Source: an uncultured Acidobacteriota bacterium (GTDB taxonomy: Bacteria > Acidobacteriota > Terriglobia > Versatilivoradales > Versatilivoraceae). Taken from it: a stretch of DNA of 64,000 nt. Within the stretch, counting starts at the first letter, position 1, and the number at the start of each line of letters is the position of its first letter. The notes below the pieces were generated by a model. That model saw only the letters and a program-made list of their open reading frames with translations, was not told the origin of the DNA and did no database searches. Location: positions 300,636-364,635 of the forward strand of contig CAWDMN010000059.1 of NCBI GenBank assembly GCA_963803155.1. The letters are read 5' to 3'. The position numbers and the translations under genes were made by a program. Shown piece by piece: positions 143-62,190 of this stretch.

Positions 143-544
143 ATGTACTTTAAAATCGACCCTGCCAACGGATTGCCAATTTACCTGCAAATCATCCATC
201 AGGTCAAGACGGCAATCGCGATGGGGCGGCTTCAACCGGAGGAGTCGCTTCCTTCAGTGCGCCAGTTGGCCATGGACCTGGCCGTAAATCCCAACACCGT
301 GGCACGGGCTTACCTGGATCTGGAACACGAAGGGGTTATCTACAAGCGGCCGGGCCAGGGGACTTTTGTTTCCCAGCAGGAGGTGGAGATGTCGAAAAAA
401 GAACGCATGAAGATTTTTCACGATCATCTGGAGAAGTCGCTGGTGGAGGGGATCAATCTCGGCCTGGAGGCGGATGAGATGACGCGGGCCTTTGAGCAGC
501 AATTGGAGCGGATCCTCAATTCCCGCCTGGCGGGGAAACCATAA
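143..544 (+). CDS. GntR-family transcriptional regulator (YtrA-like, short C-terminal domain)
   Basis: The N-terminal winged-HTH region LPSVRQLAMDLAVNPNTVARAYLDLEHEGVI is a classic GntR signature. The protein is 133 aa. It is immediately followed by an ABC ATPase/permease pair, as in ytrA-type operons. Confidence 0.85.
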   Translation: MYFKIDPANGLPIYLQIIHQVKTAIAMGRLQPEESLPSVRQLAMDLAVNPNTVARAYLDLEHEGVIYKRPGQGTFVSQQEVEMSKKERMKIFHDHLEKSLVEGINLGLEADEMTRAFEQQLERILNSRLAGKP

Positions 545-621
545 CGCCGAGGCGAGTGGTGTGCGATTTGGCCGCTCTCCTTCCATGCAATACTCAGCTC
601 TTTGTCGAAACGAGGTAGACC

Positions 622-1587
622 ATGAACGATTCTGAAGAATTGGCAACTTCAGACTTTGCCATCGAGGTGGAGAATCTGACCCGGCATTTTGATGACTTGC
701 TCGCGGTCAACGAGGTGAGTCTGCAAATCCCGAAAGGCTCGATATTCGGGTTGCTGGGAGTCAACGGAGCGGGGAAATCCACTTTGATTAAAATGCTGAT
801 GGGACATGTGAAGCCCTCCGCGGGGACGATCAAAATTCTGGGCCGCACCCTGGAACGGGATTTTCTCGAAATACGCAAGAGGGTCGGTTACGTATCGGAA
901 AACCGATACCTTTATGAATGGATGACCGTAGCGGAAAAACTGCGGTTTGCCCGCTCCTTTCACGACGGCTGGGACGAGCGGAAAACCGCCGATCTGCTGG
1001 CCCGCTTCGGCCTCCCTCAAAACAAAAAGATTCGGGAACTCTCCCGAGGCAATCGGGCCCGGGTCTGCCTAGTGACGGCGCTGGCTTTCAATCCGGAGTT
1101 GATCATCCTGGATGAACCGACGTCCGGATTGGATCCCATTGTCCGGCGAGATTTTTTGGAAAACATCATTTGGGAAATCGGGCAGGAAGGCCGCACCGTG
1201 CTCTTTTCGTCCCACATCGTGGAAGAGGTGGAACGAATTGCCGATTATGTCGCCATTATTGACAACGGTCAGATTTTATCGGTATCGACGGTGGAAAAAT
1301 TAAAAGGGGCCTTTCGCCGGGTTCGTTTTTCCACGAACGGGAGCACCCCGGATTTAAAAGGACTCCCCGGCTTGTTGGCCGTGTCCCACGGCCTCCATGA
1401 GCAGATCTTGACCATTCAAAACTTTTCGGAGGACAGCCTGCGATTGCTGGCCGAGAGGGGTGTTAACAATCCCGAGTCAATTCCCATGTCGCTTGAGGAA
1501 ATTTTTGTGGATTCCGTCCGGGCCCGCCGCCGGGTCAACGGGACGGAAGATGCCTGGGAGGTTCGTTATGAATCGAAACATCGTTAA
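622..1587 (+). CDS. ABC transporter ATP-binding protein
   Basis: Walker A GVNGAGKST, ABC signature LSRGNRARV, Walker B LIILDEPTSGLD, H-loop SSHIVEE. Confidence 0.9.
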   Translation: MNDSEELATSDFAIEVENLTRHFDDLLAVNEVSLQIPKGSIFGLLGVNGAGKSTLIKMLMGHVKPSAGTIKILGRTLERDFLEIRKRVGYVSENRYLYEWMTVAEKLRFARSFHDGWDERKTADLLARFGLPQNKKIRELSRGNRARVCLVTALAFNPELIILDEPTSGLDPIVRRDFLENIIWEIGQEGRTVLFSSHIVEEVERIADYVAIIDNGQILSVSTVEKLKGAFRRVRFSTNGSTPDLKGLPGLLAVSHGLHEQILTIQNFSEDSLRLLAERGVNNPESIPMSLEEIFVDSVRARRRVNGTEDAWEVRYESKHR

Positions 1588-2377
1588 AGCCCTGATTTGG
1601 AAAGAATGGCGGGAAACTCGATGGAAGTGGCTGGCTTTCTACGCGGCTTTTCATATCCCGGCCTTGTTGGGGATCCTGGCCTTCACCTTTGACCGCTCTT
1701 TCCGGTTCGACATCATGGTGTTGAGCAATCCCATGACCCGTCAGTACCTGAACATTTTTCTGATCTTCCAATCGGGATTTGCCATCACGGCGGGACTCTT
1801 TTTGGTGGCGTTTTATGCCGCCAGCACGGTGGCGCCGGAAATCGAAGGGCGTCAGATTTTTTTCCTCTTCGAACGCCCAGTCCGGCGCTGGCTGATCCTG
1901 CTGGTTAAATTTGTGATGGGAGCCATCCAAAACCTGCTCTGCATCGGGCTTTCCATCCTTTCGACTCTGCTGCTCGGCTACGCGGGCCTCGTGCTGGTGG
2001 CCCATAATGTCACAATTCGCGGGTCCTGGAGTGAATTTTCCGCGGTATTCAGCAATGGATTGCGCGGCACGCTTTGGACTGCCGTGATTGGGTTGATGGT
2101 CTTTGCGGGAACTTTTATTTTCTCGGTTGTTTTCGAAAAGTGGTGGGTTGGAGTCATTGCCGGCGCCATCTCTTTAATTGGAATGTTTTACTTCATGGGC
2201 CGATCGATGTTCGATTGGATGCTCACCAATGTCGTCAATCAGCCAGGAGGCCCGGAGAAAGCCAAACTCGACCTCTATGCCAAACTGGAGCCTGGTCCCA
2301 TGCTGGCCATGCTGGGGATGAGTGTGGTGTTTTATTTGACGGCACAGTACCTTTTTGAACGCAAGGAGATGCGCTGA
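1568..2377 (+). CDS. ABC-2 type transporter permease (multi-pass membrane protein)
   Basis: The start was moved to the ATG at 1568 (MNRNIVKALIWKEW), which overlaps the upstream ATPase stop by a few nucleotides (translational coupling). There are at least six hydrophobic segments. The longer ORF starting at 1460 would run antisense-overlapping inside the ATPase gene. Confidence 0.6.
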   Translation: MNRNIVKALIWKEWRETRWKWLAFYAAFHIPALLGILAFTFDRSFRFDIMVLSNPMTRQYLNIFLIFQSGFAITAGLFLVAFYAASTVAPEIEGRQIFFLFERPVRRWLILLVKFVMGAIQNLLCIGLSILSTLLLGYAGLVLVAHNVTIRGSWSEFSAVFSNGLRGTLWTAVIGLMVFAGTFIFSVVFEKWWVGVIAGAISLIGMFYFMGRSMFDWMLTNVVNQPGGPEKAKLDLYAKLEPGPMLAMLGMSVVFYLTAQYLFERKEMR

Positions 2378-2407
2378 TTTCAAGAATCAAGCCGACGCCG
2401 TAAGTGG

Positions 2408-2537
2408 GCTTTTGGCCAAGCAACCAGAGGCTCTACAGAAAGCACGAAGCGACAGCGAGTGATCAGGGCGGCGGCAAAAGAATTCCAGGCCCCAGACAGA
2501 TGAAGCTGAGCTGATCGCTCGTTGGCACTTCGCGCTC
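2408..2537. repeat. repeat family R1, copy A: part1 2408-2466 and part2 2506-2537
   Basis: The sequence gcttttggccaagcaaccag...aagcacgaagcgacagcgagtgatcag and gctgagctgatcgctcgttggcacttcgcgct reappears reverse-complemented at 4463-4559. Confidence 0.7.
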
Positions 2538-2651
2538 CCTGCCGCATAAATTGCGCTCAATGTGGCTACCACACGGAGGGATGTTGAGCAGTTGCCATTT
2601 TTTTTTGAGCGACACTTTAAACGATTTAGCCATAAAGGCAAGAGGTGAATT

Positions 2652-4316
2652 ATGACGATTAAAAAAAAGAAAACCATATTGTTGATCACTGTGTTTGTCT
2701 GTTTCGCATTAGCCATCATTACCTGGCAATTTACCAAACCCACGGCCGCGGGCCCGCCGAGGCTGGAACGCTTCCTGCCGGCCACTACTCTTGGCTTCAT
2801 CCAGGCCTATGACCTGCGTTCACAGACCCTGCACATAACGGAATCCGAAGCCTGGAGGGCCTTGCTCGATGAAAATCCAACGGCGGGACCCCTCTTGTTG
2901 ATGAGCGCCAATCACGCCGGTCTTTTGGATGCCAGTTATGCGGTGGCACTTTGTGGCTTGGAAATTCAAAATGAAAAACCAGCTCCGGCGGGGGCTCTGC
3001 TGGCACATTTTAATTCTCATTATTCCCTGGGAATGTTTGAGCGGCGGCTCTTGGAAAAAAGAAAGAGCTCCGCAAATGGTGAGAAGCTCTACGAGGGGGT
3101 AAAGATCTCGATTTGGGAGGAAAAAGATCATCCTCCGCTCTATTATGCCAAGAAAGATACGCTGGCGGTGTTGGCGAACTCTTTTGCCACAATCACCGGG
3201 ATCCTCGATGTTGCCTCCGATAAAGCTCCCTCTCTAGCAGGAAACTCGCGGCTGATTGAGGCAAGAGGCAAGGCCACGAATAACGATGAGCTCTTTGGTT
3301 TTTTTGATAGCACGCAACTGCGTCAATCCTTGAAAAGCATTTCGGATGAGCAAAAACAAAAGAGGTTGAAGGAACTCCTACAAGAGACCGGCTTGGACTG
3401 GGTGGAGTATGGGGCCATGAACAGCAGCTTTGTGGAAGGGCGCGTCCTGGAGAGTTTTGAGCTGCACATCCCCCAACAGGGGGCTGGAATCCTGCGCGAA
3501 GTGCTGAACACTCCTCCCACTTCCGGCGCTTTGCTCTCCTTCGTGCCGGAAGGGGCATCGCAAGTCCTGGATGCATCGATTGCCAACGCATCGGATGCCT
3601 TAAACCAATTCCTGGCACTCATCGACCGGCTGCATTCCAGTCAAAATAAGCCGGGAGCAGAGGACTTTTTAAAACATATCACGGAAAAAACCGGACTCGA
3701 CTTTCAGGAAGATTTCCTTAAATCGCTGGGAGCGGAAATCTGTCTGGCCCAATTCTCCGCTGATCCCTCTGAGGGGCTGCTGCTCTTGAATCTTCTGGAT
3801 GAAAATCGTATGGAGCAAACATTGAAAAAAGTGGCGGATAAAATTCGCCAGCCGATTACAACCGCAACCTATCAGGGATTCCCCGTGCGGCAGATTGCGT
3901 TGCCTGGGAAAATGGCATTATCCTACACCTTCATCAACGGCAACCTGATCGTGAGCTCAACCCGAGGGAGCGTGGAAAAATCCATAGCAGCCTACCGCGA
4001 GGGCAAATCACTTTCCGCGAGCCCCTCGTACCTGGAAGCTCGTCAAGAAATGCTGCATCCATCCTCTTTCATCTATTACAGCTCTAATAAGGATTATTTG
4101 AAACAACTGGAGGTTGTGCTAAAGGACTCCGACAAAGATTTCAAACCCGGCGGAAAAGACTCAAACCTGAGGCCCAGTTTCGCTTTTGGTTACACAGAGC
4201 CGAATGGATACTTGATCAAGAGTCTCTCACCGCTTGGGATCTTCCCCCGCACCTTGATGATGGTCACTTCCCGCATTTCCGCGGAAATCGAAAAGGATGG
4301 ATCGCCACACACCTAA
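2652..4316 (+). CDS. hypothetical protein with N-terminal signal-anchor (possibly DUF3352-like)
   Basis: 554-aa ORF. The N-terminus is MTIKKKKTILLITVFVCFALAIITW (one TM helix). The rest is soluble with mixed composition. It lies between inverted copies of repeat R1. Confidence 0.55.
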   Translation: MTIKKKKTILLITVFVCFALAIITWQFTKPTAAGPPRLERFLPATTLGFIQAYDLRSQTLHITESEAWRALLDENPTAGPLLLMSANHAGLLDASYAVALCGLEIQNEKPAPAGALLAHFNSHYSLGMFERRLLEKRKSSANGEKLYEGVKISIWEEKDHPPLYYAKKDTLAVLANSFATITGILDVASDKAPSLAGNSRLIEARGKATNNDELFGFFDSTQLRQSLKSISDEQKQKRLKELLQETGLDWVEYGAMNSSFVEGRVLESFELHIPQQGAGILREVLNTPPTSGALLSFVPEGASQVLDASIANASDALNQFLALIDRLHSSQNKPGAEDFLKHITEKTGLDFQEDFLKSLGAEICLAQFSADPSEGLLLLNLLDENRMEQTLKKVADKIRQPITTATYQGFPVRQIALPGKMALSYTFINGNLIVSSTRGSVEKSIAAYREGKSLSASPSYLEARQEMLHPSSFIYYSSNKDYLKQLEVVLKDSDKDFKPGGKDSNLRPSFAFGYTEPNGYLIKSLSPLGIFPRTLMMVTSRISAEIEKDGSPHT

Positions 4317-4462
4317 AGACTCAGGAGGGAATTTCCGGTTCGCAACTCTCCTCCTTGATCGGGATGCCATTAAGAGCGAAAGAAAAAAGGGAACTACTCA
4401 GTCCCAAGTTCTTTCTCTATGGGTTTGAAGGGAATTCAATGGCAGGGTCTTGTAGGGCCACG

Positions 4463-4559
4463 CTGATCACTCGCTAACGCTTCGTGCTTTTTCGCTTTGC
4501 CTGGTTGCTTGGTTTCGCTAGGCCAAAAGCGCGAAGTGTGAACGGGCGATCAACTCAGC
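4463..4559. repeat. repeat family R1, copy B (inverted relative to copy A; part2 and part1 fused)
   Basis: The reverse complement reads gctgagttgatcgcccgttcacacttcgcgcttttggcctagcgaaaccaagcaaccaggcaaagcgaaaaagcacgaagcgttagcgagtgatcag. It matches both halves of copy A. Confidence 0.7.
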
Positions 4560-4721
4560 ATGACGTGCCTTGGTCTGCAATTCATAAGCTGCCACGCTCA
4601 GTGCTCTCTTTTGGTTTGGATTCAAAGGGAGATTCAAAGGGGGTTTAAAGGGTCAGATCTGGTTATTATGTAATATTAAGTTTCGATTCTTGATTAAAGG
4701 GAGCCAGCATCATGGGAGGCA

Positions 4722-6002
4722 TTAGTAGACGAATTCTCGAATATCATAGAGGGCCACTTGAGGGGAGTGCGAATCCTTCCGTTGGATTCCCATCCGAATT
4801 TCCGTTAATTGATTTTGAATTTTTTCACCGGATAAACTATTGATCCCCTGCTCCGTCATTTTGCGGCTGTAGAGATCGTCTTCAGTCGTTTTCAAAGGTG
4901 AGAGATAAATCAAATCTCCATGGCCCAGAGAAAGCGAATTCACCAATTTAAGAGTTTGACTCACATGGGTCTGCTCGTAACGATCGCCACCTACTCCAAC
5001 CAAGAGGATGATCCCAACCTGAATTCCGGCGCTTTTTAGATTCGCGACAACATCCAGGACTTGCTCGGGATGAGCGGATTTATTCATCCACTGTAGTAAT
5101 TCATCACAGCCGGTTTCCACGCCAAGATACACTCGCCGCAAATGGAGCCGCTGAAGATCTTTGAAATCAGCCACGCTCTTTCTCTCTCCGGTAAAGCTGT
5201 CCAAAAAAGAGTAGATCCCTTGAAAGACCGCGGAGCCATGTTCCAAAGGAACGGCTGTTCTGTCTTCTCCACGCCAGGTGAATTCCTCCTTCATTATGGC
5301 AAAAAACTCCACTAACTGAGGTTGAGGGATAACTAGCGCATTGGCGTCGGCCAGGAAGATGCTGCGTCTCAGTCGGATGGAGTCACCGAAGAATAGCTTT
5401 GCCTGTTGGATGTGATTTTGAAATTCTTCCAGGCTCTTGATATGGAAATGTGTTTGATCGTAAAAATGGCAAAACGTGCAACGATTCCAGTGACAACCTT
5501 CCGTGGCCTGAAGAACCAGCGCCTGGTACTGGTCTGGGGGGAGAATGGTGATCGGTTTGTAAACACGATTGAATTGTTCGCGCTGATTTTCCAATCGTTC
5601 AAGATTCCATCCCACAATCTTCTTGAGGCGGGCAAGAATCGTTCCCCTTTGCGAGAGGCTCGGCTGTGACGACTCTTGGGAACTCAAACGCCTCGTCGAG
5701 AGGTCAGCCGCCAAGCGGGAAATCAGTGCATAAGCGCTCTCCAAAACATGGAGTTTTTCAGAACCGCGGCACTCTTCGATTAATTTCCAGGGAGATTGGC
5801 CGAGGGGATCCCGTGATTTTTTGATGAGCCGGTTATCCAAAGTACGGAGATAGGTTCGATCCCCTTGCCAGGCCGTGAGAAATCGCCCTTCCAAATCGAA
5901 GGCATATACTTCCGAGTCATCCAAGCTGATTGCCGTGGATTCGACTTTTAAATTTAAAATGACCTTTCGGCCATCCCGGGAAAATGGAAAATCAAACAGC
6001 AT
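4722..6002 (-). CDS. putative radical SAM-like enzyme with non-canonical Cx4Cx2C cluster motif
   Basis: The motif LQATEGCHWNRCTFCHFY sits where radical SAM proteins carry CxxxCxxC-aromatic. A Gly-rich VGVGGD segment follows. The assignment is by motif only. Confidence 0.4.
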   Translation of the reverse strand: MLFDFPFSRDGRKVILNLKVESTAISLDDSEVYAFDLEGRFLTAWQGDRTYLRTLDNRLIKKSRDPLGQSPWKLIEECRGSEKLHVLESAYALISRLAADLSTRRLSSQESSQPSLSQRGTILARLKKIVGWNLERLENQREQFNRVYKPITILPPDQYQALVLQATEGCHWNRCTFCHFYDQTHFHIKSLEEFQNHIQQAKLFFGDSIRLRRSIFLADANALVIPQPQLVEFFAIMKEEFTWRGEDRTAVPLEHGSAVFQGIYSFLDSFTGERKSVADFKDLQRLHLRRVYLGVETGCDELLQWMNKSAHPEQVLDVVANLKSAGIQVGIILLVGVGGDRYEQTHVSQTLKLVNSLSLGHGDLIYLSPLKTTEDDLYSRKMTEQGINSLSGEKIQNQLTEIRMGIQRKDSHSPQVALYDIREFVY

Positions 6003-25890: not shown

Positions 25891-26634
25891 TTTAATCTCT
25901 CAAAATAAGTTCTTAAATTTGAATCCATATAAAATAACAGAAAGGATAATAAAATACGCTCCCCCTGCACCGGAGCAAACGGTATTGTGGCAAAACAACT
26001 GTCCGCCAGCAAGAATAAGATGATAATCCACATGATTTTTTTTCAGGGATACAACAACTGAGTGGATATTGGCGGAGCCGTCGATTGATGGCATCTACTC
26101 AGCTCTTCGCTGTCAACCGATCAAATCAAGAAGCACAAAACCTAAGAGAGTATTTAATTTCTTAATCGTTCACTTCCAAGGCTTAGGCTCAGGAATAAAC
26201 CACGGGAATCATGGGTAATCAATCACGCAATTCCCCACCCCGATCACTCGCTAGTGTTTCCCGTTTCTGTGTTTAATCGCTTTTCGGAGGTTTGCCAAAC
26301 AGTTGTTTTTTCTCTTTGCATTTTTTTTCAAGTGAAGGACAATTTCTCCGTTAGCTGGTTAGGATTAACATTTGGGATTGAGATCCTCATGCTGCATCAA
26401 TCCCGTCATCCCGTCAAAGCGGGAGCAGAAGTTTTTGAGGGTTTGGTATGCGCCACCCGAGCCTGGAGGGACCGGCCCGTCCAGGAAAAGCAGTGGAGGT
26501 TCTATAGCTTCAAAATTGCCCGTCAATCCGCACGGATCTTTGAGCGCGGATTATTGAATTATTGAAGAGTTTTTCATTGTGTTGAGTAAGGCTTGCCAAG
26601 CGCGGTGGTTTTGCGCGGAACGGATATCACGGCC

Positions 26635-27981
26635 ATGAAATCATTAAAAATAGGAATTTCCGGAGTGCGCGGAATCGTCGGAGAGACTTTTACTCCTGAG
26701 CTCGCATGCGGGTTTGCCGAGGCTTTTGGCACTTATATGGATGGCGGACGAATATTGGTCTGCCGGGACCCGCGCCCTTCGGGACCGATGGTAGTTGCCG
26801 CTGTTTCCGCCGGCCTTTTGGCTTCCGGCTGTGAAATCGTGGACTTGGAGATCTGTCCCACACCCTCTTTGCAAATAGCGGTTCGTCAGATGAAAGCCCA
26901 AGGAGGCATCTCCATTACGGCAGGCCACAATCCCATGCACTGGAATGCCTTAAAATTCGTGCGGGGCGATGGTCTTTATTTGAATTCCTCACAAGCGGAA
27001 GAATTGCTCGATGTTTTTCATCAGGGAGAATTCAACAAGGCCAGCTGGAGGGAAATGCAGACCTCCATCCCCAAAGGGGATGCGCTGGAACTGCATCTCG
27101 CGGCTCTGCGTCCGGCCTTCGATATAGAGAAGATTAGCTCTCGCAAGCTTCGTGTGGCCGTGGACTGCTGCAACGGTTCCTGCTCCGTTCTCAGCCCGCG
27201 ATGGCTGGAGGTGCTGGGTTGCCAGGTTCTGGCCGTCAATGATGACCCCTCGCTTCCTTTCCCCCGCAATCCCGAGCCTAGGCGGGAAACCATGGCCCAG
27301 CTTCGCGCGGTGGTCAAAGCCGGCCAGGCCGATATCGGATTTGCCCATGATGCCGATGGAGAACGGCTGGGAATCGTTACTGAGTCTGGTGAGCCCCTGG
27401 TGGAAGAAAAGACTTTGGCCATGGCAGTCCAAATTAAGCTTGCCCAAAAGACCGGGCCCGTGGTTACGAATATTTCCACCAGCCGGGCCATTGAATTAAT
27501 CGCGCAGCGATTTGGAGCTTCGGTCATCCGCACTCCCGTCGGCCAGGCTTATATTTCCGAGGCTATGCTGGAACATCAGGGAGTCATTGGCGGCGAAGGG
27601 AGCGGCGGAGTCATTATCCCAGAAGTGCAGATGACTCACGACAGCACTGCGGCCTTGGCTTTAGTGCTGGAATGGATGGCTGTCACCGGCAGCCGGATTT
27701 CAGAGTTGGCTGAAAGCATCCCTCAATTGGCTATCGTGAAACATAATATCTCCGTCCCGCCGAATCGTATTTATACACTTTTGCAGGGATTTTTAGAGCG
27801 GGTTGAGAGAGAAGAACCCGCGGAAATTAATTTGACGGATGGCATTAAGATCAATTGGCCAAATGGATGGGTGCATTTGAGGGCCTCGAACACAGAGTCA
27901 ATGATCCGGATCATCGCCGAAGCCGCTACAGCCGCTGAAGCACAACAATTTCTTGACTGGGCACGCGACCGGCTTTCCTGA
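26635..27981 (+). CDS. alpha-D-phosphohexomutase paralog 1 (phosphoglucosamine/phosphomannomutase-like) with catalytic Ser replaced by Gly
   Basis: Start taken at MKSLKIGISGVRG. The active-site loop reads ITAGHNP (codon GGC), where the family has TASHNP. The metal loop is DADGER instead of DxDxDR. The sugar-binding and phosphate-binding regions are otherwise conserved. Confidence 0.8.
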   Translation: MKSLKIGISGVRGIVGETFTPELACGFAEAFGTYMDGGRILVCRDPRPSGPMVVAAVSAGLLASGCEIVDLEICPTPSLQIAVRQMKAQGGISITAGHNPMHWNALKFVRGDGLYLNSSQAEELLDVFHQGEFNKASWREMQTSIPKGDALELHLAALRPAFDIEKISSRKLRVAVDCCNGSCSVLSPRWLEVLGCQVLAVNDDPSLPFPRNPEPRRETMAQLRAVVKAGQADIGFAHDADGERLGIVTESGEPLVEEKTLAMAVQIKLAQKTGPVVTNISTSRAIELIAQRFGASVIRTPVGQAYISEAMLEHQGVIGGEGSGGVIIPEVQMTHDSTAALALVLEWMAVTGSRISELAESIPQLAIVKHNISVPPNRIYTLLQGFLERVEREEPAEINLTDGIKINWPNGWVHLRASNTESMIRIIAEAATAAEAQQFLDWARDRLS

Positions 27982-28099
27982 CAAGTTGAAATTCGGCTTT
28001 GGGATTTTGACTTAGAAGCCCACTTCCCGCCGGAATACGCTCATCGCGCCTTCTCGACTTGTTGGCGAATGGAATTGTGCATTACCCTTTATTTTATCT

Positions 28100-28131
28100 G
28101 GATCTTGCCGCGATTGGTCGCGGCAAGATCC
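28100..28131 (+). promoter_or_regulatory. perfect 14-bp stem / 4-nt loop hairpin (ggatcttgccgcga-ttgg-tcgcggcaagatcc) between the two mutase paralogs
   Basis: Read directly from the sequence. There is no U-run after it. Confidence 0.6.
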
Positions 28132-28144
28132 AAACAGGTGGATT

Positions 28145-29507
28145 TATGCGTGCAATCCCCACATTAAAAATCAGCATTTCCGGTGTTCGCGGAGTTGTGG
28201 GAGACTCCCTGACACCGACGCTACTGACCCGTTTTGCCCAGGCCTTTGGCACTTATACGAATTCCGGCACCATTGTGATCGGACGCGACACCCGCACTTC
28301 GGGCGAAATGGTCCGACAGGCCGTGATAGCCGGATTACTCTCCAGCGGGTGCCGTGTCCTCGACTTGGATATCTGTCCCGTTCCTACCATCCAATGGATG
28401 GTCCGGCATTTGGGCACTCCTGGCGGCATCGCTATCACAGCCAGCCACAATCCCGCTGAGTGGAACGCCCTGAAATTCGTCGGCGCCAATGGACTATTTC
28501 TGGATTCCGGCCAAGCCCGCGATTTGCTGAACATTTATCACCAGGGGGAATATACTCTGGTGCGTGGTGTCGAGATGCGCTCGGTGGAACATGTCAAGGG
28601 CGCGTGTGACCTGCACATTGCCGCCATTCTCAAGGAATTGGGCCCCCTGGCGGGAAAAGAAAAAAAAATCCGTGTCGTGCTTGACTCCTGCAATGGGGCC
28701 GGCTCGCTGGCAGGCCCTCGGCTGCTCGAAGCCTTGGGCGCGGAAGTCATCCCGGTTTTTAACACTCCCGATGGATCCTTTCCCCGTCCGGCTGAACCGC
28801 TCCCACAAAATTTGGGGGTCTTGTGTGAATCCGTAAAGAAACATCAGGCCGATGTCGGTTTTGCCCAGGATATGGATGCAGACCGGCTGGCCGTGGTTTC
28901 TGAACAAGGAATTCCCATTGGCGAGGATTTTACTCTGGTTTTGGCCACTTATTATGTTCTCAGTCATACTCAGGGCGCGGTTGTCTCCAATCTCTCAACC
29001 AGCCATGCGCTGGATTGGGTCGCGCGCAAATTCCACTGCCCGATTGTAAAAAGCAAGATAGGAGAAGCCAATGTCACCGAGACCATGCGGCGGGAAAATG
29101 CCATCATTGGCGGTGAGGGGAATGGTGGAGTGATTTTTCCCCGCTTGAATTTCGCGCGGGACAGCTTGGTGGGAATGGCCCTCATCCTGCATCTGCTCGA
29201 AAAGTCCGGAAAATCCATTTCCACGCTGATCGGAGAGATGCCCGCCTTCCAGATGGTCAAGGAGAAACTGCCCTGCCCCTCCGACAAAATCCAGCCGGTT
29301 TTAAAAATGCTTCGTCAAAAATACGCAACTTACCCACAGGACTTGCGGGATGGGATAAAAATTGAAGTGCCGGGTGGCTGGTTTCATGTGCGCGGATCCA
29401 ACACGGAACCCATCATCCGCCTGGTTGCTGAGGGAGAATCCGCGAAAATTCTGGAAGACCTCCGTTCTTCAGTCTTCGGGCGGGTGAAGGATTTCTTGGG
29501 CTGCTGA
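28145..29507 (+). CDS. alpha-D-phosphohexomutase paralog 2 (intact active site TASHNP; metal loop DMDADR)
   Basis: Start taken at MRAIPTLKISISGVRG. All four phosphohexomutase domains are recognisable. Confidence 0.85.
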
Positions 29508-54304: not shown

Positions 54305-55416
54305 GGGTCAGACCTTAATTGTTGTTAATTGAGTTTCATTGTAATTGTCCGGATCTGATTAACTTGCATGTTTTTTCGAGAAGCCGCCCTCGCGCAGGGT
54401 CGGTCTTGACTTCATTGGCCAGTATCTTCAAATGCCGGCTTACTGCCGCGCTACTGGCCAGCCCTAGCTGCCGGGCCACCTCCCGCTCGCTCAGCCCGCC
54501 CATTTCCACCAGCAGTTTCATAGCCAGCCGCCGTCCCGGATGTCGCGAATGCAAGCGCCTGAGTTCTTCGACCTCCATCCCACAGACCTGGCTGACGGCC
54601 TTCAGGATCACCGACGAATCGATTCCCACCTCCGTTCGCCTCATTCGAATCTCTTCGGGTGCCTGGAATTGACCAAGTCTCTGTTCTTGTTCCTCCTCTG
54701 CCCATTGGCAAAAGGTCCGATCGCCGATTGCCTTCGTCGAGTGCCCCATCACTTCCGCCAGCTCTTCATCCTTCCTGGCAATTCCGCTCTCGACAAACTC
54801 CCGATAAGCCCGGGCGCGGTCCTTTTTCCCTTCTCCCAGCCAGGCTGTCAGTGGCCCGTAATCCACAAAGGCTTCCTTCTGCTTTACCCCTGCATAGCCG
54901 CCGTAACTGCTCCAGCGATATTGCCGCAGCAGGCCAATCTTTTGTTTAATCGGCCATCCCCGCATGCGCTTAATCTTGACGGGATTCAAATGGACGTATC
55001 GGGTCAATTGCAGCAAGTAGCGGCTCTCCTCCACCAGTCGGGATTTATACCTTCCCTCCAATAAATGTCCATGCCGCTGGTGGCGCCGATTAAAGTAGAC
55101 CGTATAGGCGGTGCTGAAGTGCTGCATAAACCGGCTCAAGTTGGCCCGCGGGGTCTCCACCAGCAGATGCAGATGATTGCTCATGAACACGTAGGCATAG
55201 AGACGCACCTGGTAGCGCTCCAAGCTGGCCGCGAGCTTCTGCTGCATCACCTCCCGGTCGGAGTCATCGTGGAAGAGTTCCTTGCGCTCCTGACCCCGCG
55301 TAGTGACATGATAGATCGCCCCCGGATAAAGAATTCTAATCGATCGCGCCATATGCCAATATTACCCTGAGTTTGCTTTATGATTCAACATAATAGCAAC
55401 TATTAAGGTCTGACCC
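54305..55416 (-). mobile_element. compact IS carrying a Y1 HUH (IS200-like) transposase, bounded by 20-bp inverted repeats GGGTCAGACCTTAATWGTTG
   Basis: Left end 54305-54324 (gggtcagaccttaattgttg). Right end 55397-55416 (the reverse complement is gggtcagaccttaatagttg). 19/20 match. Confidence 0.6.
54336..55352 (-). CDS. IS200-like Y1 (HUH) transposase with C-terminal DnaA-C-like HTH extension (COG1943 long form)
   Basis: HUH motif SNHLHLLVE. The catalytic Tyr region is EGRYKS. The C-terminal 150 aa carry a helix-turn-helix (RQLGLASSAAVSRHLK). Confidence 0.75.
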   Translation of the reverse strand: MARSIRILYPGAIYHVTTRGQERKELFHDDSDREVMQQKLAASLERYQVRLYAYVFMSNHLHLLVETPRANLSRFMQHFSTAYTVYFNRRHQRHGHLLEGRYKSRLVEESRYLLQLTRYVHLNPVKIKRMRGWPIKQKIGLLRQYRWSSYGGYAGVKQKEAFVDYGPLTAWLGEGKKDRARAYREFVESGIARKDEELAEVMGHSTKAIGDRTFCQWAEEEQEQRLGQFQAPEEIRMRRTEVGIDSSVILKAVSQVCGMEVEELRRLHSRHPGRRLAMKLLVEMGGLSEREVARQLGLASSAAVSRHLKILANEVKTDPARGRLLEKTCKLIRSGQLQ

Positions 55417-56545: not shown

Positions 56546-57299
56546 ATGGGACAGAGAGTAATTGGAGCCGGAAAAAGAAGCAAGGGCAAAGAGAGAAGAA
56601 AAAAGAGACAACAAATCCAAGAAGAAGTTAGGACTTTGGACAGTCGGTTTGAACTGATCCAGATGTTGATCCCTCTAGGCTTGAAAGCAGTGGAAGAAGA
56701 ATTACAGAAAGAGGTGGAACAGCTGGTTGGCCGCGGAGCCAGCCGGAGTCCGGAGAATCGACGCTGGGGAAGAAATCCAGGATCAGTCTACCTGGGAGAT
56801 CAGAAAGTCAGAGTCGAAGTGCCGCGAGTACGAAATGTAGCGGTGCGCCAAGAAGTGCCTCTGGAGAGTTATCAAGCTTTTCGAAAGACGAAGGTGTTGG
56901 ACCATCAGGTCCTGAATCGACTGATCTGTGGGATCAGCCAGAGGCAATATGAACAGGCGGCTCTCTGTGTGCCCGAGACGTTTGGGATCAAAAAGAGCAG
57001 TGTGTCGCGACACTTCATTCGAACCACGGCTCGGAAGTTGGAAACTTTTTTGAATCGGGATTTGAGCCAGCACGATCTTGTGGCGATCTTTATCGATGGG
57101 AAGCGGTTAGCAGAAACCGATATGATCGTGGCTTTGGGGATTACGCTCGAGGGTAAAAAGATCCTATTGGGATTTGTAGAAGCCAGCACAGAAAATCAAC
57201 GAGTGGCTCAGGATTTTATCCAGCGACTGCTGGATCGAGGGTTAAGAACCGAACAGGAGATTCTCTTCATTATCGACGGAGTCAAAGGGCTGTATAAAG
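56546..57299 (+). pseudogene. IS256-family (mutator-type) transposase, N-terminal fragment, interrupted by IS66
   Basis: ...HDLVAIFIDGKRL...ILFIIDGVKGLYKG is typical IS256 DDE region 1. The frame continues at 59823 (IKASLAEKALIQRCQWHKRENV, IS256 region 2). Confidence 0.75.
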
Positions 57300-57345
57300 G
57301 TAAGCGTCCATTTATCCCCACCTTGTGATTACGGGGGGACAGGGA

Positions 57346-58965
57346 TTATGATGACTGGTTTTGTGAAGAACGGCGGACCGGTTTGAGATCAACATTCCAG
57401 GGCAACAGTGGATCCAGATTTTGATTATCTCTGAGCGGCAGGTTGGGCAATTTCTCAAATAAAAGGAATAGATAAGCATAAGGATCCAGGTTGTTTTCTT
57501 TGGCGGTTTCGATAAGGCTGTAGATGATGGCACTTGATTTCGCCCCCTTGGGGGTGTTACTGAACAGCCAGTTTTTCCTTCCAATGACGAAGGGTTTGAT
57601 GGATCGTTCCGCCCGGTTGTTGGACAGTTCCAACCGGCCATCCTCCAGGAAACGGATCAGCTTCGGCCATTGCTGACGACAATAATTCACGGCCACGCCC
57701 AAAAGGCTTTTAGGTAAAACGACCAGAGCTTGTTCATCCAACCACCGGCGAAACTGATCCAACACCGGCCGGCTTTTCTCTTGCCGTGATTTCAAACGCT
57801 CTTCCGGAGTGCTCTCTTTCAGTCCCCGCTCCATGTCAAAGAGCCGATTAATCTGATCCAAGCCCGCCTGGGCCTGGCTGCCGTTCTTGCGATACTTGGC
57901 CGGCAATCCTTTCAGAGCTTCATCGAATTTTCTTCGAGCATGCGCCCAACACCCCACCAAAGTGACCTGGGGCAGGTCATGATATCCCGCATAGCCATCC
58001 ACCTGCAGATATCCCTGGAATCCTTTTAAGAATTCTTTGGGATGATCTCCAGCACGGCTTTGCTGATAATCATAGAGGACCATAGCGGGTCCTTCTCTTC
58101 CGGTCCGATACAACCACATGTACGATTGGCTCTCCGCCTCTCGTCCCGGTTCCTTCAGCACTTGGACCGTTGTCTCATCCGCATGGAGAATATCCCGCTC
58201 GAGCAACTTTTGCCTCAAACGAAGATAGAGCAACTCCAGCCATTCACTTCCCTTGATCATCCAGTTTGAAAGAACCGATCGGGACAGTTCGATGCCCATC
58301 CGCTGATAATGTTGTTCTTGCCGGTACAAGGGCACCCCTTCCACAAACTTCATCGTCATCACATAAGCCACCGACGAAGCCGAAGCCAGACCTTTTTCAA
58401 TCACCGGTTTGGGTGCCACCGCCGTTTTAATGGGTACTTCGATCCCATTCTTCTCGCAGTTCCGGCAGCTGTAGACAAAACGGACGTGCTGTAAGATTTT
58501 TACCTGCGCCGGAATCAGCTGCACTTCATGACGGGTCTCTTCACTCATTTCGTGCATCCGGCCGCCACAACAGGAACAGACCTGCTCCTCTTCCGCCAGC
58601 CGGTACTCGATGCGCTCCATCGGAAGGTCTTGCGGAATGGGCCGCCGCCCGGGCTTTCTTTTCCGTTCATAGCTGATGGTAATCTTGTCTTCGGCGAGAG
58701 CCGGAGCGGCTTCATCGACTGCTTCCGCCTCATTGAACAGGCTGGGTTGTTCCGGCACGCTGCGTTCACTCGATGGGCCATACTGTTTGGCTCGCGCCAA
58801 GTGAAACTGCTCCTCAAACCAGCGCAGCTTTTCCTCCAGCTGTTCGATTTTTGTGGCCTGTTGATTCAACTGAGCAACCAGTTCTTCGCGAGTTTCCAGG
58901 GGCTTTGGCAAGACCGTTGACATGCCTGCTATTATACGGATTTGCCCTTCTTTTTTCAAGTACAA
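57346..58965 (-). CDS. tnpC: IS66-family transposase TnpC (DDE, zinc-finger)
   Basis: N-terminal leucine zipper. Zinc-finger CSCCGGRMH...CRNC. The DDE core region matches IS66 Orf3. Confidence 0.9.
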   Translation of the reverse strand: MYLKKEGQIRIIAGMSTVLPKPLETREELVAQLNQQATKIEQLEEKLRWFEEQFHLARAKQYGPSSERSVPEQPSLFNEAEAVDEAAPALAEDKITISYERKRKPGRRPIPQDLPMERIEYRLAEEEQVCSCCGGRMHEMSEETRHEVQLIPAQVKILQHVRFVYSCRNCEKNGIEVPIKTAVAPKPVIEKGLASASSVAYVMTMKFVEGVPLYRQEQHYQRMGIELSRSVLSNWMIKGSEWLELLYLRLRQKLLERDILHADETTVQVLKEPGREAESQSYMWLYRTGREGPAMVLYDYQQSRAGDHPKEFLKGFQGYLQVDGYAGYHDLPQVTLVGCWAHARRKFDEALKGLPAKYRKNGSQAQAGLDQINRLFDMERGLKESTPEERLKSRQEKSRPVLDQFRRWLDEQALVVLPKSLLGVAVNYCRQQWPKLIRFLEDGRLELSNNRAERSIKPFVIGRKNWLFSNTPKGAKSSAIIYSLIETAKENNLDPYAYLFLLFEKLPNLPLRDNQNLDPLLPWNVDLKPVRRSSQNQSS

Positions 58966-59058
58966 AATTCCCTGAAACCCTCATATTTACTGGTATCTTA
59001 ACCGTTTTTGCCGTAACTTTTTCAGCCGGCCAAACTGGCTGTCCAATCTTTGCACAAC

Positions 59059-59412
59059 TCAGATCACCACCCGAGCCGCCACCGCCCGATGAGCTTGCCG
59101 CTGCTCCACACTCAATCCATCCAACAACCACTGCAATTGCCGCCGCCTGATGGCCAAGGGCTCCTCACCTCCCGACGGCCACTGGAATCGCCCCCGTTCT
59201 AATCGCCGGTAATAAAGCCAGAACCCATTATGTTCCCAACGAAGAATCTTCAACTTGTCCCGCTGCCGGTTGCAGAAAACAAACCACTGCTCCGAAAAAG
59301 GGTCCAATTGAAATACTCCACTGACCAGAGCCGCCAATCCATCGATCGATTTGCGAAGGTCAGTCGCCCCGGGTGCCAGATGAATCGGACTTACTGGCAC
59401 CTGGCTCAACAT
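59059..59412 (-). CDS. tnpB: IS66 Orf2 (TnpB)
   Basis: The 117-aa protein PIHLAPGATDLRKSIDGLAALV...RDKLKILRWEHNGFWLYYRRLERGRFQWP matches the IS66 Orf2 family. Confidence 0.85.
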   Translation of the reverse strand: MLSQVPVSPIHLAPGATDLRKSIDGLAALVSGVFQLDPFSEQWFVFCNRQRDKLKILRWEHNGFWLYYRRLERGRFQWPSGGEEPLAIRRRQLQWLLDGLSVEQRQAHRAVAARVVI

Positions 59413-59735
59413 GCCGCACCCACCACCTCCAGCACCTCGGCCAGCAGTTGCCGGTCAAATCCCCTCTCTACCTCCACAATCACTCGCCCAATCCTCAGGC
59501 GAATTCCAGTGTCCCGATTTGACGGATCTTCCTCGCACAATTGCAAGGGTATCCAGCCCATTCGTTTTTTCTCGAGGGATCGAATCGCCTGCTTTTTTAA
59601 TTTCCGTTGCCAATAACCCAACCGATGAATGGGGATCTGATGCTGCTGACAATATTCCCTTCGGCTTACTCCACTTTCTTGATATCCTCGGACTTGCTGC
59701 TGCCAATACTCTATGATCTCTGCTGTCGCCTTCAT
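59406..59735 (-). CDS. tnpA: IS66 Orf1 (TnpA, HTH)
   Basis: 109 aa, SGVSRREYCQQHQIPIHRLGYWQRKL. It overlaps tnpB by 7 nt, the typical IS66 arrangement. Confidence 0.8.
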   Translation of the reverse strand: MKATAEIIEYWQQQVRGYQESGVSRREYCQQHQIPIHRLGYWQRKLKKQAIRSLEKKRMGWIPLQLCEEDPSNRDTGIRLRIGRVIVEVERGFDRQLLAEVLEVVGAAC

Positions 59736-59822
59736 GATGGACTTTGCCTCCCTATTGTATTTTCGGAAGCATTATCCTCGGCAATGGTTTTTATTGGAAG
59801 GTGGGGATAAATGGACGCTTAC

Positions 59823-62107: not shown

Positions 62108-62113
62108 TTATTA

Positions 62114-62164
62114 GTCCAACACTGCTGCTCCCCTGACCAGCGCACTTTCCGCGCTGGTCAGGGG
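62114..62164. repeat. R5 copy 2: perfect 11-bp stem / 7-nt loop (ctgaccagcgc-actttcc-gcgctggtcag) between the OLD-family gene stop and the helicase start
   Basis: Read directly. It shares gtccaacac-gc-gc...ccagcg..cttt.cgcgctgg with 60499-60541. Confidence 0.6.
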
Positions 62165-62190
62165 AAGCAAGCTTGTTCGCATTTCATTCG

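What the first reader, a model, noticed from the sequence alone, without database searches (positions are those of the whole stretch)
2400..4565. Hypothetical membrane-anchored gene sits between inverted ~100-bp repeats whose halves are permuted
Upstream copy: part1 2408-2466 plus a 39-bp spacer plus part2 2506-2537. Downstream copy 4463-4559 is the reverse complement, with part2 and part1 directly fused. The 554-aa gene 2652-4316 therefore lies between inverted terminal-like repeats, as in a passenger cassette or composite element. The permutation suggests a tandem-unit origin. The downstream spacer also holds (g)attcaaaggg tandem units at 4619-4655.
Basis: seen in the sequence. Interest (0 to 1): 0.5.

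Follow-up and report, generated by a model that had tools for sequence, protein, structure and literature searches.

The report
REP-type hairpin repeats flank conserved gene
The two "permuted" inverted repeats are separate copies of a small REP-type hairpin-forming repeat, lodged in the spacers on either side of a conserved operon gene, so the gene is not mobile cargo and the feature is fairly ordinary.

Summary
Window 2408-2537 and 4448-4573 share three blocks (X, A, B) in inverted orientation and in cyclically permuted order. The cassette reading fails.

- **The gene is resident.** Gene 2652-4316 (DUF3352) is the fourth gene of a conserved row: GntR, ABC ATPase, ABC-2 permease, DUF3352. That row is found in relatives from 89% down to 36% identity.
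- **Relatives lack the pairing.** The closest relative has the gene in the same place with no repeat on either side. Another shares the upstream copy, has no copy in the downstream spacer, and carries one at a different site.
- **The blocks are REP units.** A and B are two variants of a 23-nt unit: (foot) G-CAC-GAA-GC-GNNA-GC-GA-GTG-ATC. It forms a small interrupted stem-loop supported by changes on both sides of pairs.
- **The unit matches a published family.** It matches the REP-like sequences described next to "class 3" Y1 (HuH) transposase genes of Planctomycetes and Acidobacteria.
- **The permutation is array phase.** Units alternate in orientation with two linkers, like a BIME or REPIN. 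A metagenome contig reads B-X-A-loop-B and contains both window forms.

Likely role (inferred): passive mobile-repeat remnants that form 3'-UTR or intercistronic hairpins. This is a new member of a known kind, of low to moderate interest.

The parts
2408..2441 (+). X linker (partial) of the upstream R1 copy. Its 3' end, CAGAAA, lies just 5' of the first unit.
   Evidence: Aligns to the X block of the downstream copy and of L073. Colinearity with L002 ends at window 2402.
2442..2464 (+). Type-1 REP-like unit core: GCAC GAA GC GACA GC GA GTG ATC.
   Evidence: nhmmer arm profile, E = 1.9e-7. The small stem-loop is supported by covariation.
2465..2512 (.). Spacer between the two converging units of the upstream dimer (feet outside, a head-to-head dimer). 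It is the loop of the long hairpin.
2513..2535 (-). Type-2 REP-like unit core, read on the minus strand: GCGC GAA GT GCCA AC GA GCG ATC.
   Evidence: nhmmer, E = 1.7e-6. It differs from type 1 by two changes that each affect both sides of a pair.
2652..4316 (+). 554-aa DUF3352 protein with an N-terminal membrane anchor. It is the fourth gene of the conserved row GntR, ABC ATPase, ABC-2 permease, DUF3352. It is resident, not cargo.
   Evidence: Pfam PF11832, E = 5e-17. 59 homologues. Synteny. AlphaFold pLDDT 79.
4448..4464 (.). Remnant of the head-to-head spacer at the outer edge of the downstream copy.
   Evidence: Inverted pair I2 extends to 4448. The stretch aligns to the L073 spacer.
4465..4487 (-). 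Type-1 unit core, read on the minus strand: GCAC GAA GC GTTA GC GA GTG ATC.
   Evidence: nhmmer, E = 2.9e-8.
4488..4528 (.). X linker between the two diverging units of the downstream dimer (feet inside, a tail-to-tail dimer).
   Evidence: The block order B.X.A matches L073:262-362.
4529..4551 (+). Type-2 unit core: GCGC GAA GT GTGA AC GG GCG ATC.
   Evidence: nhmmer, E = 2.8e-5.
4552..4573 (.). 3' extension of the type-2 block. It is the counterpart of 2491-2512.
   Evidence: Inverted pair I1, 46 nt, 78%.
4619..4652 (.). Short tandem repeat: 2.9 copies of GATTCAAAGGGA. It lies in the 3' region of the convergent radical SAM gene and is not part of R1.
   Evidence: Tandem Repeats Finder, score 47. 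The region is not conserved in L002 or L004.
143..2377 (+). The upstream part of the conserved operon-like row: GntR regulator 143-544, ABC ATPase 622-1587, ABC-2 permease about 1568-2377.
   Evidence: Pfam. The same row occurs in L002 and L074-L078.
4722..6002 (-). Convergent radical SAM gene. The downstream R1 copy lies between its 3' end and the 3' end of the DUF3352 gene.
   Evidence: Pfam PF04055. The gene is syntenic in L002 and L004.

Best explanation
R1 is not a pair of terminal repeats. It is two separate copies of a small REP-type mosaic repeat.

**The unit.** The building block is a 23-nt unit: (foot)-G CAC GAA GC GNNA GC GA GTG ATC. As single-stranded DNA it forms a short interrupted stem-loop: a 3-bp stem, a GAA/GA internal loop, a 2-bp stem and a GNNA tetraloop.
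- Two variants exist. Type 1 has CAC..GC/GC..GTG. Type 2 has CGC..GT/AC..GCG.
- Every R1 copy pairs one type-1 unit with one type-2 unit in opposite orientation.
- Units alternate in orientation and are separated alternately by a variable spacer and by a conserved X linker. This is the layout of E. coli BIMEs or REPINs.
- The upstream copy is one phase of that array (X, unit 1 forward, spacer, unit 2 reverse). The downstream copy is another phase (unit 2, X, unit 1) on the other strand. That is why the halves look permuted.

**The family.** The unit belongs to the REP-like sequences published as flanking "class 3" Y1 HuH transposase genes in Planctomycetes and Acidobacteria.

**How the copies got there.** Shown: the copies lie in the only two spacers where this genome and its closest relative lose colinearity. 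Inferred: they were most likely spread by such an enzyme acting on single-stranded DNA. Also inferred: these two variable spacers tolerate, or attract, hairpin elements.

**Likely effect (inferred by analogy with E. coli REPs).** When transcribed, each dimer folds into a roughly 30-bp imperfect hairpin.
- Between the permease and DUF3352 genes it would partly attenuate read-through and protect the upstream mRNA.
- Between the convergent DUF3352 and radical SAM genes it would act as a 3'-end barrier for both.

**The gene.** The DUF3352 gene is a resident operon member.
For: **Anatomy**
- Four units are present, and no others in 64 kb.
- Block order is X.A.spacer.B upstream and B.X.A downstream.
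- Each dimer folds as a long hairpin.
- L073 carries B.X.A.spacer.B next to an unrelated GDSL hydrolase gene. All copies align to it in register.

**Unit structure**
- In 29 units, 97.2% of cells pair and 3 of 5 pairs show changes on both sides (15 cells).
- The covariation score is 0.358 against 0.145 for shuffles, and 0 of 500 shuffles reach it. Slid controls pair in at most 41% of cells.
- The type-1 and type-2 variants are tabulated.

**Family**
- Table S1 of PMC6006769 lists, for class 3, ACGAGCCGGAAGCGTCAGCGACGGGC from Planctopirus limnophila.
- My unit L038 is ACGAGCACGAAGCGTCAGCGAGTGATC. That is 20 of 27 identical positions without gaps, and four of the seven differences form two compensated pairs.
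- The paper places class 3 mainly in Planctomycetes and Acidobacteria, with up to about 600 copies per genome.
- Units with the same core occur as intergenic hairpins in Planctomycetota, Phycisphaerae and one Acidimicrobiia MAG.

**Independence from the gene**
- Synteny holds without R1 in L002, L003 and L074-L078.
- L004 shares only the upstream copy and has another copy at a synteny breakpoint.
- The only two breaks in colinearity between the window and L002 are 2403-2599 and 4354-4708. Both hold R1 in the window and different sequence in L002. The downstream spacer of L004 holds yet another, unalignable fill, while its upstream spacer carries the shared R1 copy.
- Other lineages carry different hairpin elements in the same permease-to-DUF3352 spacer (L002, L074).

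**Functional analogy**
- In E. coli, REPs between tandem genes attenuate the downstream gene and stabilise the upstream transcript. REPs between convergent genes go with higher expression of both (bioRxiv 10.64898/2026.03.23.713779).
Against: - **Copy number looks low.** There are two copies in 64 kb. The metagenome scan found a single exact match to the acidobacterial arm. The viral scan found none. That is unlike classical high-copy REPs.
- **The published CnGA foot is missing.** It is absent from the window's units, which have GAAA, AAAA, GGGA and AAAA.
- **No class-3 enzyme gene was found.** None is in the window or in any DNA I hold. The window's only Y1 gene is subclass 2.1 and has unrelated terminal repeats.
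- **The single-unit stem-loop is thermodynamically marginal.** It folds at -1.6 to -4 kcal/mol with z near 0.
- **The covariation rests on few independent events.** There are essentially three variants: type 1, type 2 and P. limnophila.
- **R1 has no intrinsic-terminator signature.** No T-run follows it. The RNA-level role is pure analogy.
- **Two copies in adjacent spacers is somewhat unlikely by chance.** My own rough estimate is about 4% for random placement among roughly 50 spacers. I explain it by the two spacers being hot spots, but I have not proved that.
Confidence: 0.78

Rival explanations
1. Passenger cassette or composite element. The two R1 copies are the terminal inverted repeats of a mobile unit that carries the DUF3352 gene as cargo.
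For: The two repeats are inverted and are the only copies in 64 kb. Both sit next to the same gene. Both variable spacers bracket that gene.
Against: - The gene is at the same place without repeats in L002 and L003, and in all distant relatives.
- L004 has one copy at this gene and another at a different site.
- There is no transposase, no target-site duplication and no compositional break.
- Nucleotide identity to L002 is continuous across the segment.
- The blocks are permuted array phases, not defined ends.
Confidence: 0.03
2. Invertible or recombining segment. The inverted copies are substrates for inversion of the gene, by a site-specific recombinase or by homologous recombination, giving phase variation.
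For: Inverted repeats 2 kb apart could in principle recombine.
Against: - No recombinase gene is nearby.
- The copies are only about 80% identical, and the longest near-perfect stretch is 28 nt.
- The ribosome-binding and leader region of the gene lies inside the segment, so an inversion would not switch a promoter.
- Every relative and both independent assemblies show the same orientation.
Confidence: 0.03
3. A MITE derived from a DDE-type insertion sequence. The two arms are terminal inverted repeats moved in trans by a conventional transposase.
For: - Each copy is about 100-130 bp with roughly 30-nt inverted arms and lies between genes.
- IS66 and Mutator-family transposases occur in the window at 56-60 kb.
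Against: - No target-site duplication is present.
- The arms occur as trimers and in both converging and diverging arrangements.
- Each arm has its own covarying stem-loop.
- The arm matches published Y1-associated REP-like units.
Confidence: 0.06
4. A dedicated cis-regulatory RNA, such as a riboswitch, attenuator or small RNA, that controls DUF3352 from both sides.
For: As RNA the hairpins are stable, and the upstream copy folds better than shuffles on the coding strand (z = -3.6). It sits in a leader-like position, 114 nt before the start codon.
Against: - There is no Rfam match, even at permissive thresholds.
- The same units occur in both orientations and next to unrelated genes.
- The element is absent from relatives that keep the operon.
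- The conserved part is the small unit, not a ligand-pocket-like fold.
Confidence: 0.05

Closest known systems
REP-like sequences associated with class 3 TnpA_Y1 (HuH-Y1) genes (Quentin et al. 2018, BMC Genomics 19:475, PMC6006769)
   Same: - The unit architecture is the same: foot, short stem, GA-rich internal loop, 2-bp stem and GNNA tetraloop.
- The sequence is close. P. limnophila ACGAGCCGGAAGCGTCAGCGACGGGC against ACGAGCACGAAGCGTCAGCGAGTGATC gives 20 of 27 identical positions, with compensated stem changes.
- The phyla are the same: Planctomycetes and Acidobacteria.
- The location is intergenic and multi-site.
   Different: - The window's units lack the CnGA foot. They have AAAA, GAAA or GGGA instead.
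- Copy number looks low here, against up to about 600 per genome in Solibacter.
- No class-3 gene was seen in the 64 kb.
- The type-1 plus type-2 pairing with a conserved X linker is not mentioned in the parts of that paper I read.
E. coli BIMEs and REPINs (REP doublets forming hairpins, moved by RAYT / TnpA_REP)
   Same: - Units alternate in orientation and come in two variants, like the Y and Z units of E. coli.
- Two kinds of linker alternate.
- Dimers fold into one long hairpin.
- They sit between tandem or convergent genes.
- Presence or absence varies between close relatives (background in PMC3733652).
   Different: - There is no GTAG foot.
- The unit stem-loop is much weaker and is interrupted.
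- Numbers are far lower.
- The presumed enzyme is class 3, not class 2 (RAYT).
TIRYT / TIRtron (subclass 2.1 Y1 genes flanked by GGGGWSAS terminal inverted repeats; Di Nocera et al. 2013, PMC3733652)
   Same: One such gene is present in the same window, at 54336-55352, with 23-nt terminal inverted repeats that begin GGGGTCAG. It shows that this genome hosts Y1-type elements.
   Different: Its terminal repeats are unrelated to the R1 unit and occur only at its own flanks. It is not the partner of R1.
MITEs such as the Correia elements of Neisseria
   Same: They are small, intergenic, have inverted arms, can be co-transcribed and can form hairpins.
   Different: MITEs have defined ends and target-site duplications and derive from DDE insertion sequences. 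R1 has none of these features.

Membership tests
Composite transposon / passenger cassette | A transposase gene or full IS copies at or within the ends | tested here: not met
   Pfam on all neighbouring ORFs finds GntR, ABC, ABC-2, DUF3352, radical SAM and SdpI, and no transposase. The nearest transposases are 50 kb away.
Composite transposon / passenger cassette | Target-site duplication outside the two terminal repeats | tested here: not met
   No direct repeat is reported at the outer edges 2408 and 4573. The flanks read GCCGTAAGTGG and TCTGCAATTCA.
Composite transposon / passenger cassette | The whole segment is present or absent as a block among relatives | tested here: not met
   The gene is present at the same locus in every relative examined, with zero, one or two R1 copies.
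REP / BIME / REPIN | A short unit able to form a stem-loop | tested here: met
   Covariation test on 29 units: 97.2% of cells paired, 3 of 5 pairs with changes on both sides, 0 of 500 shuffles reach the score. Folding energy alone is weak.
REP / BIME / REPIN | A conserved 5' GT[AG]G tetranucleotide at the foot (canonical class 2 REPs) | tested here: not met
   The feet are GAAA, AAAA and GGGA in the window. In Planctomycetota they are CAGA, CCGA, ACGA or ACCA.
REP / BIME / REPIN | Inverted dimers or clusters with spacers, able to fold into one long hairpin | tested here: met
   The upstream copy is a converging dimer and the downstream copy a diverging dimer. L073 is a trimer.
REP / BIME / REPIN | Extragenic location | tested here: met
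   All acidobacterial copies, and the planctomycete hairpins checked, lie in short spacers between genes. A few of those overlap only weak or unannotated ORFs.
REP / BIME / REPIN | Many copies dispersed through the genome | not testable with these tools
   Only 64 kb of the source genome is readable, and it holds two copies. Assembly contigs L001 and L004 break inside R1, which hints at more copies. The strict-pattern metagenome scan found one locus.
Class 3 TnpA_Y1-associated REP-like sequences | Sequence and structure match to the published units | tested here: met
   20 of 27 identical positions to P. limnophila ADG69454.1 unit 1, without gaps. The loop and internal loop are shared and the stem changes are compensated.
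Class 3 TnpA_Y1-associated REP-like sequences | 5' tetranucleotide foot CnGA directly at the hairpin | tested here: not met
   It is met in planctomycete units L016, L035 and L056 (CAGA) and L060 (CCGA). It is not met in the window's four units. The upstream type-1 unit has CAGA two bases further out.
Class 3 TnpA_Y1-associated REP-like sequences | Units flank a class 3 Y1 gene (motifs NHVH and YV[VI]xEQ) in the same genome | not testable with these tools
   No such ORF exists in the window or in any fetched locus. The window's Y1 protein has NHLH and YVHLNP plus a C-terminal HTH, which places it in subclass 2.1. The rest of the genome cannot be read.
MITE | Defined terminal inverted repeats, a target-site duplication and a related autonomous IS | tested here: not met
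   There is no duplication. The boundaries differ between copies because they are array phases. No IS carries these ends in the DNA I hold.
Rfam structured RNA | A match to a curated covariance model | tested here: not met
   No match at gathering thresholds over the window. At a permissive E-value only chance-level hits appear.

The most novel reading that the evidence does not exclude
R1 may represent an undescribed branch of the class-3 Y1 REP systems. Its features would be an A-rich foot (AAAA or GAAA) instead of CnGA, an obligate pairing of two compensated unit variants (like the Y and Z units of E. coli), and a conserved X linker. The 23-nt unit core is nearly identical in Acidobacteriota, in Planctomycetota including Phycisphaerae, and in one Acidimicrobiia MAG. 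That would imply horizontal spread of a REP-enzyme pair between phyla, whereas REPIN-RAYT systems are described as mostly vertically inherited. The two spacers around the DUF3352 gene would then be preferred landing sites where different hairpin elements replace one another.
Probability: 0.25. Interest if true: 0.45.

Novelty: new member of a known kind. Interest (0 to 1): 0.25.

Why it matters
The result mainly serves as a caution. Two inverted copies of a quasi-palindromic mosaic repeat on either side of a gene can look like a transposon with cargo, when the gene is in fact an old resident of its operon.

It also adds a worked example to a barely studied repeat class. This is the REP-like units tied to class 3 HuH-Y1 proteins, so far listed only in one supplementary table. 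The example shows:
- that the units can be organised as BIME-like alternating arrays of two compensated variants;
- that the core is nearly identical across distant phyla;
- that close relatives carry different hairpin elements in the same two spacers.

If the RNA-level effect holds, these insertions would be a simple way for strains to retune expression within the ABC-transporter/DUF3352 operon without changing any protein.

Tried and rejected
1. **Genome-collection scan with a degenerate core** (GCRCGAAGYGNNNRCGAGYGATC). It was too permissive. The source genome was not among the listed loci, so genome-wide copy number stayed unknown. About 13 loci did turn out to be real relatives.
2. **Strict-pattern scans.** The metagenome scan gave one locus. 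The viral scan gave none. The plasmid BLAST gave none.
3. **Rfam**, at gathering and at permissive thresholds, gave nothing relevant.
4. **An early misreading of my own.** I first read the variable NN in the arms as covariation between the two arms of the long hairpin. It is the tetraloop of each unit, and is the same in both units of a homodimer.
5. **GTAG-tagged REP idea.** GTAG or CTAC occurs near some units, but at inconsistent positions and orientations, so I rejected it.
6. **integron attC site idea.** The R'/R'' core sites (GTTRRRY / RYYYAAC) are not conserved among the copies. This was rejected by inspection.
7. **The window's Y1 gene as partner of R1.** Rejected: it is subclass 2.1 and has its own unrelated terminal repeats.
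8. **A Y1 gene beside the planctomycete units.** None was found.
9. **Literature search for the core sequence.** It returned only unrelated primer matches. No paper mentions DUF3352.
10. **Alternative spacer fills in L002 and L004.** They encode small ORFs with no informative Pfam match.
11. **Structure of the DUF3352 protein.** The model is decent (pLDDT 79), but PDB matches are weak. The best is the T. pallidum lipoprotein TP0453, E = 3e-3, TM-score 0.46 on the target. I draw no functional claim from it.
Full report

Yes. Reading 2200-4800 and running the repeat finder gives two long inverted matches. These are 2439-2481 with 4448-4490 (43 nt, 81%) and 2491-2536 with 4528-4573 (46 nt, 78%). 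A third, short match is 2408-2421 with 4517-4530.

A blastn-short search of both copies against the whole 64-kb window returns only the reciprocal matches, at E = 7.6e-6 and E = 0.002, and nothing else.

The upstream copy is X (2408-2441), A, a spacer, then B. The reverse complement of the downstream copy is B, X, A with nothing between them.

ORF 2652-4316 (554 aa) is present and begins with a hydrophobic helix. The 12-nt tandem motif at 4619-4652 is real but weak: 2.9 copies, score 47.

One refinement matters. The cores of A and B are reverse complements of each other, so each copy is itself a long imperfect hairpin. As RNA the upstream copy folds at -61 kcal/mol (z = -3.6) and the downstream copy at -56 kcal/mol (z = -2.3).

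**2. What is the gene, and is it cargo?**

The protein is a DUF3352 family member (Pfam E = 5e-17). Upstream on the same strand lie a GntR regulator, an ABC ATPase and an ABC-2 permease. Downstream on the other strand lie a radical SAM enzyme and an SdpI-family protein.

A homology search found 59 relatives, several of them named as Pyrinomonadaceae (Acidobacteriota) proteins by their sources. I fetched their loci.

- **The 89% relative** (L002 from GCA_936419285.1, and L003) has the same gene order. An arm profile and BLAST find no R1 unit on either side.
- **The 87% relative** (L004) shares the upstream copy, and its contig starts inside it. It has no copy in the downstream spacer and carries another copy 3 kb further on, just where its synteny with the window ends.
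- **Relatives at 36-38% identity** (L074-L078) keep GntR, ABC ATPase, ABC-2 permease and DUF3352 in a row. Their permease-to-DUF3352 spacer is only 50-140 nt, against 274 nt in the window, and they have no R1.

Across 8 kb, the window and L002 are colinear except at 2403-2599 and 4354-4708. These are exactly the two R1-bearing stretches. L002 holds different sequence at both spots. At the downstream spot L004 holds a third, unalignable fill, while its upstream spacer carries the same R1 copy as the window.

Nucleotide identity to L002 is continuous across the region: 88.5% upstream, 86.3% for the gene and 79.8% downstream. GC content does not change. There is no transposase nearby and no target-site duplication.

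That test is met, so the gene is a resident operon member and not a passenger.

**3. What are the repeats?**

My first scan of the genome collection used too loose a pattern and returned mostly chance hits. About 13 of the loci, however, held the same 23-nt core as near-perfect intergenic hairpins. They come from Planctomycetota, Phycisphaerae and one Acidimicrobiia MAG. They lie between ordinary housekeeping genes. Rfam has no family for them.

The literature gave the key.

- Di Nocera et al. 2013 (PMC3733652) describe REP units arranged as head-to-head and tail-to-tail dimers, with conserved or variable spacers.
- Quentin et al. 2018 (PMC6006769) define a rare "class 3" of HuH-Y1 proteins found mainly in Planctomycetes, Acidobacteria and Proteobacteria. 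[quoted passage not shown]
- Their Table S1 lists ACGAGCCGGAAGCGTCAGCGACGGGC for Planctopirus limnophila. My unit from L038 is ACGAGCACGAAGCGTCAGCGAGTGATC.
- The two share the foot, the GAA/GA internal loop, the GC/GC inner stem and the GTCA loop. The outer stem differs by changes on both sides (CCG/CGG against CAC/GTG).

I tabulated every unit I hold. Two variants appear.

- **Type 1:** GCAC GAA GC GNNA GC GA GTG.
- **Type 2:** GCGC GAA GT GNNA AC GA GCG.

They differ by two double changes that preserve pairing. In the outer stem A-T becomes G-C. In the inner stem C-G becomes T-A.

A formal count on 29 units (alignment A4) supports the small stem-loop.

- 97.2% of cells are paired.
- 3 of 5 pairs show changes on both sides.
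- The covariation score is 0.358 against 0.145 for shuffles, and 0 of 500 shuffles reach it.
- When the partner columns are slid, at most 41% of cells pair.

Two caveats apply. A single unit folds weakly as DNA (-1.6 to -4 kcal/mol, z near 0), which fits the word "atypical". The covariation also rests on only about three independent variants.

**4. Why do the halves look permuted?**

Every acidobacterial copy pairs a type-1 unit with a type-2 unit in opposite orientation.

- In the upstream copy the units converge, with feet outside and a variable spacer at 2465-2512. The X linker precedes them.
- In the downstream copy the units diverge, with feet inside, and the X linker (4488-4528) lies between them.

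The one metagenome contig that matches the strict acidobacterial arm is L073. It lies beside an unrelated GDSL hydrolase gene and reads B.X.A.spacer.B. That is one and a half turns of a cycle made of X, unit 1, spacer and unit 2. All other copies align to it in register.

The "permutation" is therefore a difference in array phase. This is the BIME or REPIN type of organisation. It also explains why the long hairpins are imperfect. Pairing a type-1 unit with a type-2 unit turns each compensated change into a mismatch.

**5. How it most likely works**

*Shown:*
- the unit, its two variants and the alternating-array anatomy;
- the intergenic location;
- the independence from the gene, and the turnover of copies between close relatives.

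*Inferred from the published family:* the units are made or moved by a class-3 Y1 enzyme acting on single-stranded DNA. I could not test this.
- No class-3 ORF exists in the DNA I hold.
- The window's only Y1 gene (54336-55352) has NHLH and YVHLNP motifs and a C-terminal HTH. It also has its own 23-nt terminal repeats starting GGGGTCAG, which makes it a subclass 2.1 TIRYT.
- The window's units lack the CnGA foot. Their A-rich feet recur in L004, L073 and L059, so they may be a lineage variant instead of decay.

*Inferred by analogy:* E. coli REPs between tandem genes attenuate the downstream gene and stabilise the upstream transcript. REPs between convergent genes go with higher expression of both. 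The window offers both settings.
- R1-up lies between the permease and DUF3352 genes.
- R1-down lies between the convergent DUF3352 and radical SAM genes.
- No T-run follows either hairpin. A terminator-like hairpin with a T-run lies beyond R1-down on the minus strand, at 4405-4390.

*Adjacency.* By my own rough estimate, two copies in adjacent spacers would happen by chance about 4% of the time among roughly 50 spacers. The likeliest reason is that these two spacers are permissive hot spots. L002 and L074 carry other, unrelated hairpin elements in the same upstream spacer.

**6. Comparison with known families, and verdict**

- **Closest match:** the class-3-associated REP-like sequences. The sequence and structure match is met, the foot is not met, and the enzyme link is untestable here.
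- **Closest in organisation:** E. coli BIMEs and REPINs.
- **Rejected on tested features:** composite transposon, MITE, inverton and Rfam RNA.

This is a new member of a known kind. It is a tidy explanation of a misleading pattern, with a modest extra point of interest in the near-identical unit core across three phyla.

**7. Limits**

Genome-wide copy number and the presence of a class-3 enzyme in the source genome are unknown. All function at the RNA level is analogy.

Noticed in passing
window 54305-55416: A 338-aa RAYT-like Y1 gene lies at 54336-55352 on the minus strand. NCBIfam REP_Tyr_transpos scores 72 bits against a cut-off of 80. Its motifs are NHLH and YVHLNP, with a C-terminal HTH. 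It is flanked by 23-nt terminal inverted repeats (54305-54327 and 55394-55416) whose outer ends fit the published GGGGWSAS motif. It is therefore a subclass 2.1 TIRYT / TIRtron. Its repeat occurs nowhere else in the window.
   Followed up: yes
window 56546-60339: Nested insertion sequences. A Mutator-family (IS256-like) transposase is split into 56546-57328 and 59713-60339. A complete IS66-family transposase gene (57346-58965, minus strand) lies between the two pieces.
   Followed up: partly
window 60647-63924: A possible defence gene pair lies next to the IS cluster. A 577-aa AAA_15 / OLD-type ATPase has PADLOC best hit AriA at 2.5e-43, with weaker GajA and Old hits. It is followed by a 486-aa PIF1/RecD-like helicase. 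I did not assign it to a system.
   Followed up: partly
L016:936-1005, L056:5335-5402, L060:941-1009, L038:2441-2500, L042:4770-4843, L052:6587-6651, L027:6606-7165, L059:2880-2961: The same 23-nt unit core (GCACGAAGCG-NN-AGCGAGTGATC) occurs as intergenic dimers in Phycisphaerae, Gemmatales, Isosphaeraceae, Maioricimonas and one Acidimicrobiia MAG. Several have a CAGA, CCGA or ACGA foot. Near-identity across phyla suggests horizontal spread or very strong constraint.
   Followed up: partly
L002:9708-9750 and L074:5861-6000: The permease-to-DUF3352 spacer hosts different hairpin elements in other lineages. L002 has a GTAG-footed hairpin (GTAG-GATGCGTTAGC...GCGTAACGCATCC). L074 has inverted GTAAACCGTGAACCG repeats. 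Each occurs once in the DNA I hold. The spacer looks like a recurrent landing site.
   Followed up: partly
window 4354-4708, L002:11702-12800, L004:1835-2843: The spacer between the DUF3352 and radical SAM genes is hypervariable. It is 355 nt with R1 in the window. In L002 it is 1.1 kb with two small minus-strand ORFs (132 and 108 aa). In L004 it is 1.0 kb with a 302-aa ORF. None of these ORFs has an informative Pfam match.
   Followed up: partly
window 4323-4355: The roughly 45 nt just after the DUF3352 stop codon are conserved in the window, L002 and L004. They contain a hairpin-capable stretch (AGGAGGG ... CTCCTCC) without a T-run. This may be the gene's native 3' structure.
   Followed up: no
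L001 (window 2516-4486) and the start of L004 (window 2514): Two independent short-read assemblies break their contigs inside R1 units. That is what a repeat shared with other genomic sites, or strain variation at R1, would produce.
   Followed up: no
window 2652-4316: The AlphaFold model of the DUF3352 protein (pLDDT 79, pTM 0.75) shows an N-terminal helix followed by repeated alpha/beta sandwich modules. Its only, weak, PDB similarities are to envelope lipoproteins: TP0453 (E = 3e-3), TiME and LpqN. No paper in the library mentions DUF3352.
   Followed up: partly
window 26593-29507: Two adjacent phosphoglucomutase/phosphomannomutase paralogues (462 and 482 aa) lie in tandem on the plus strand.
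   Followed up: no
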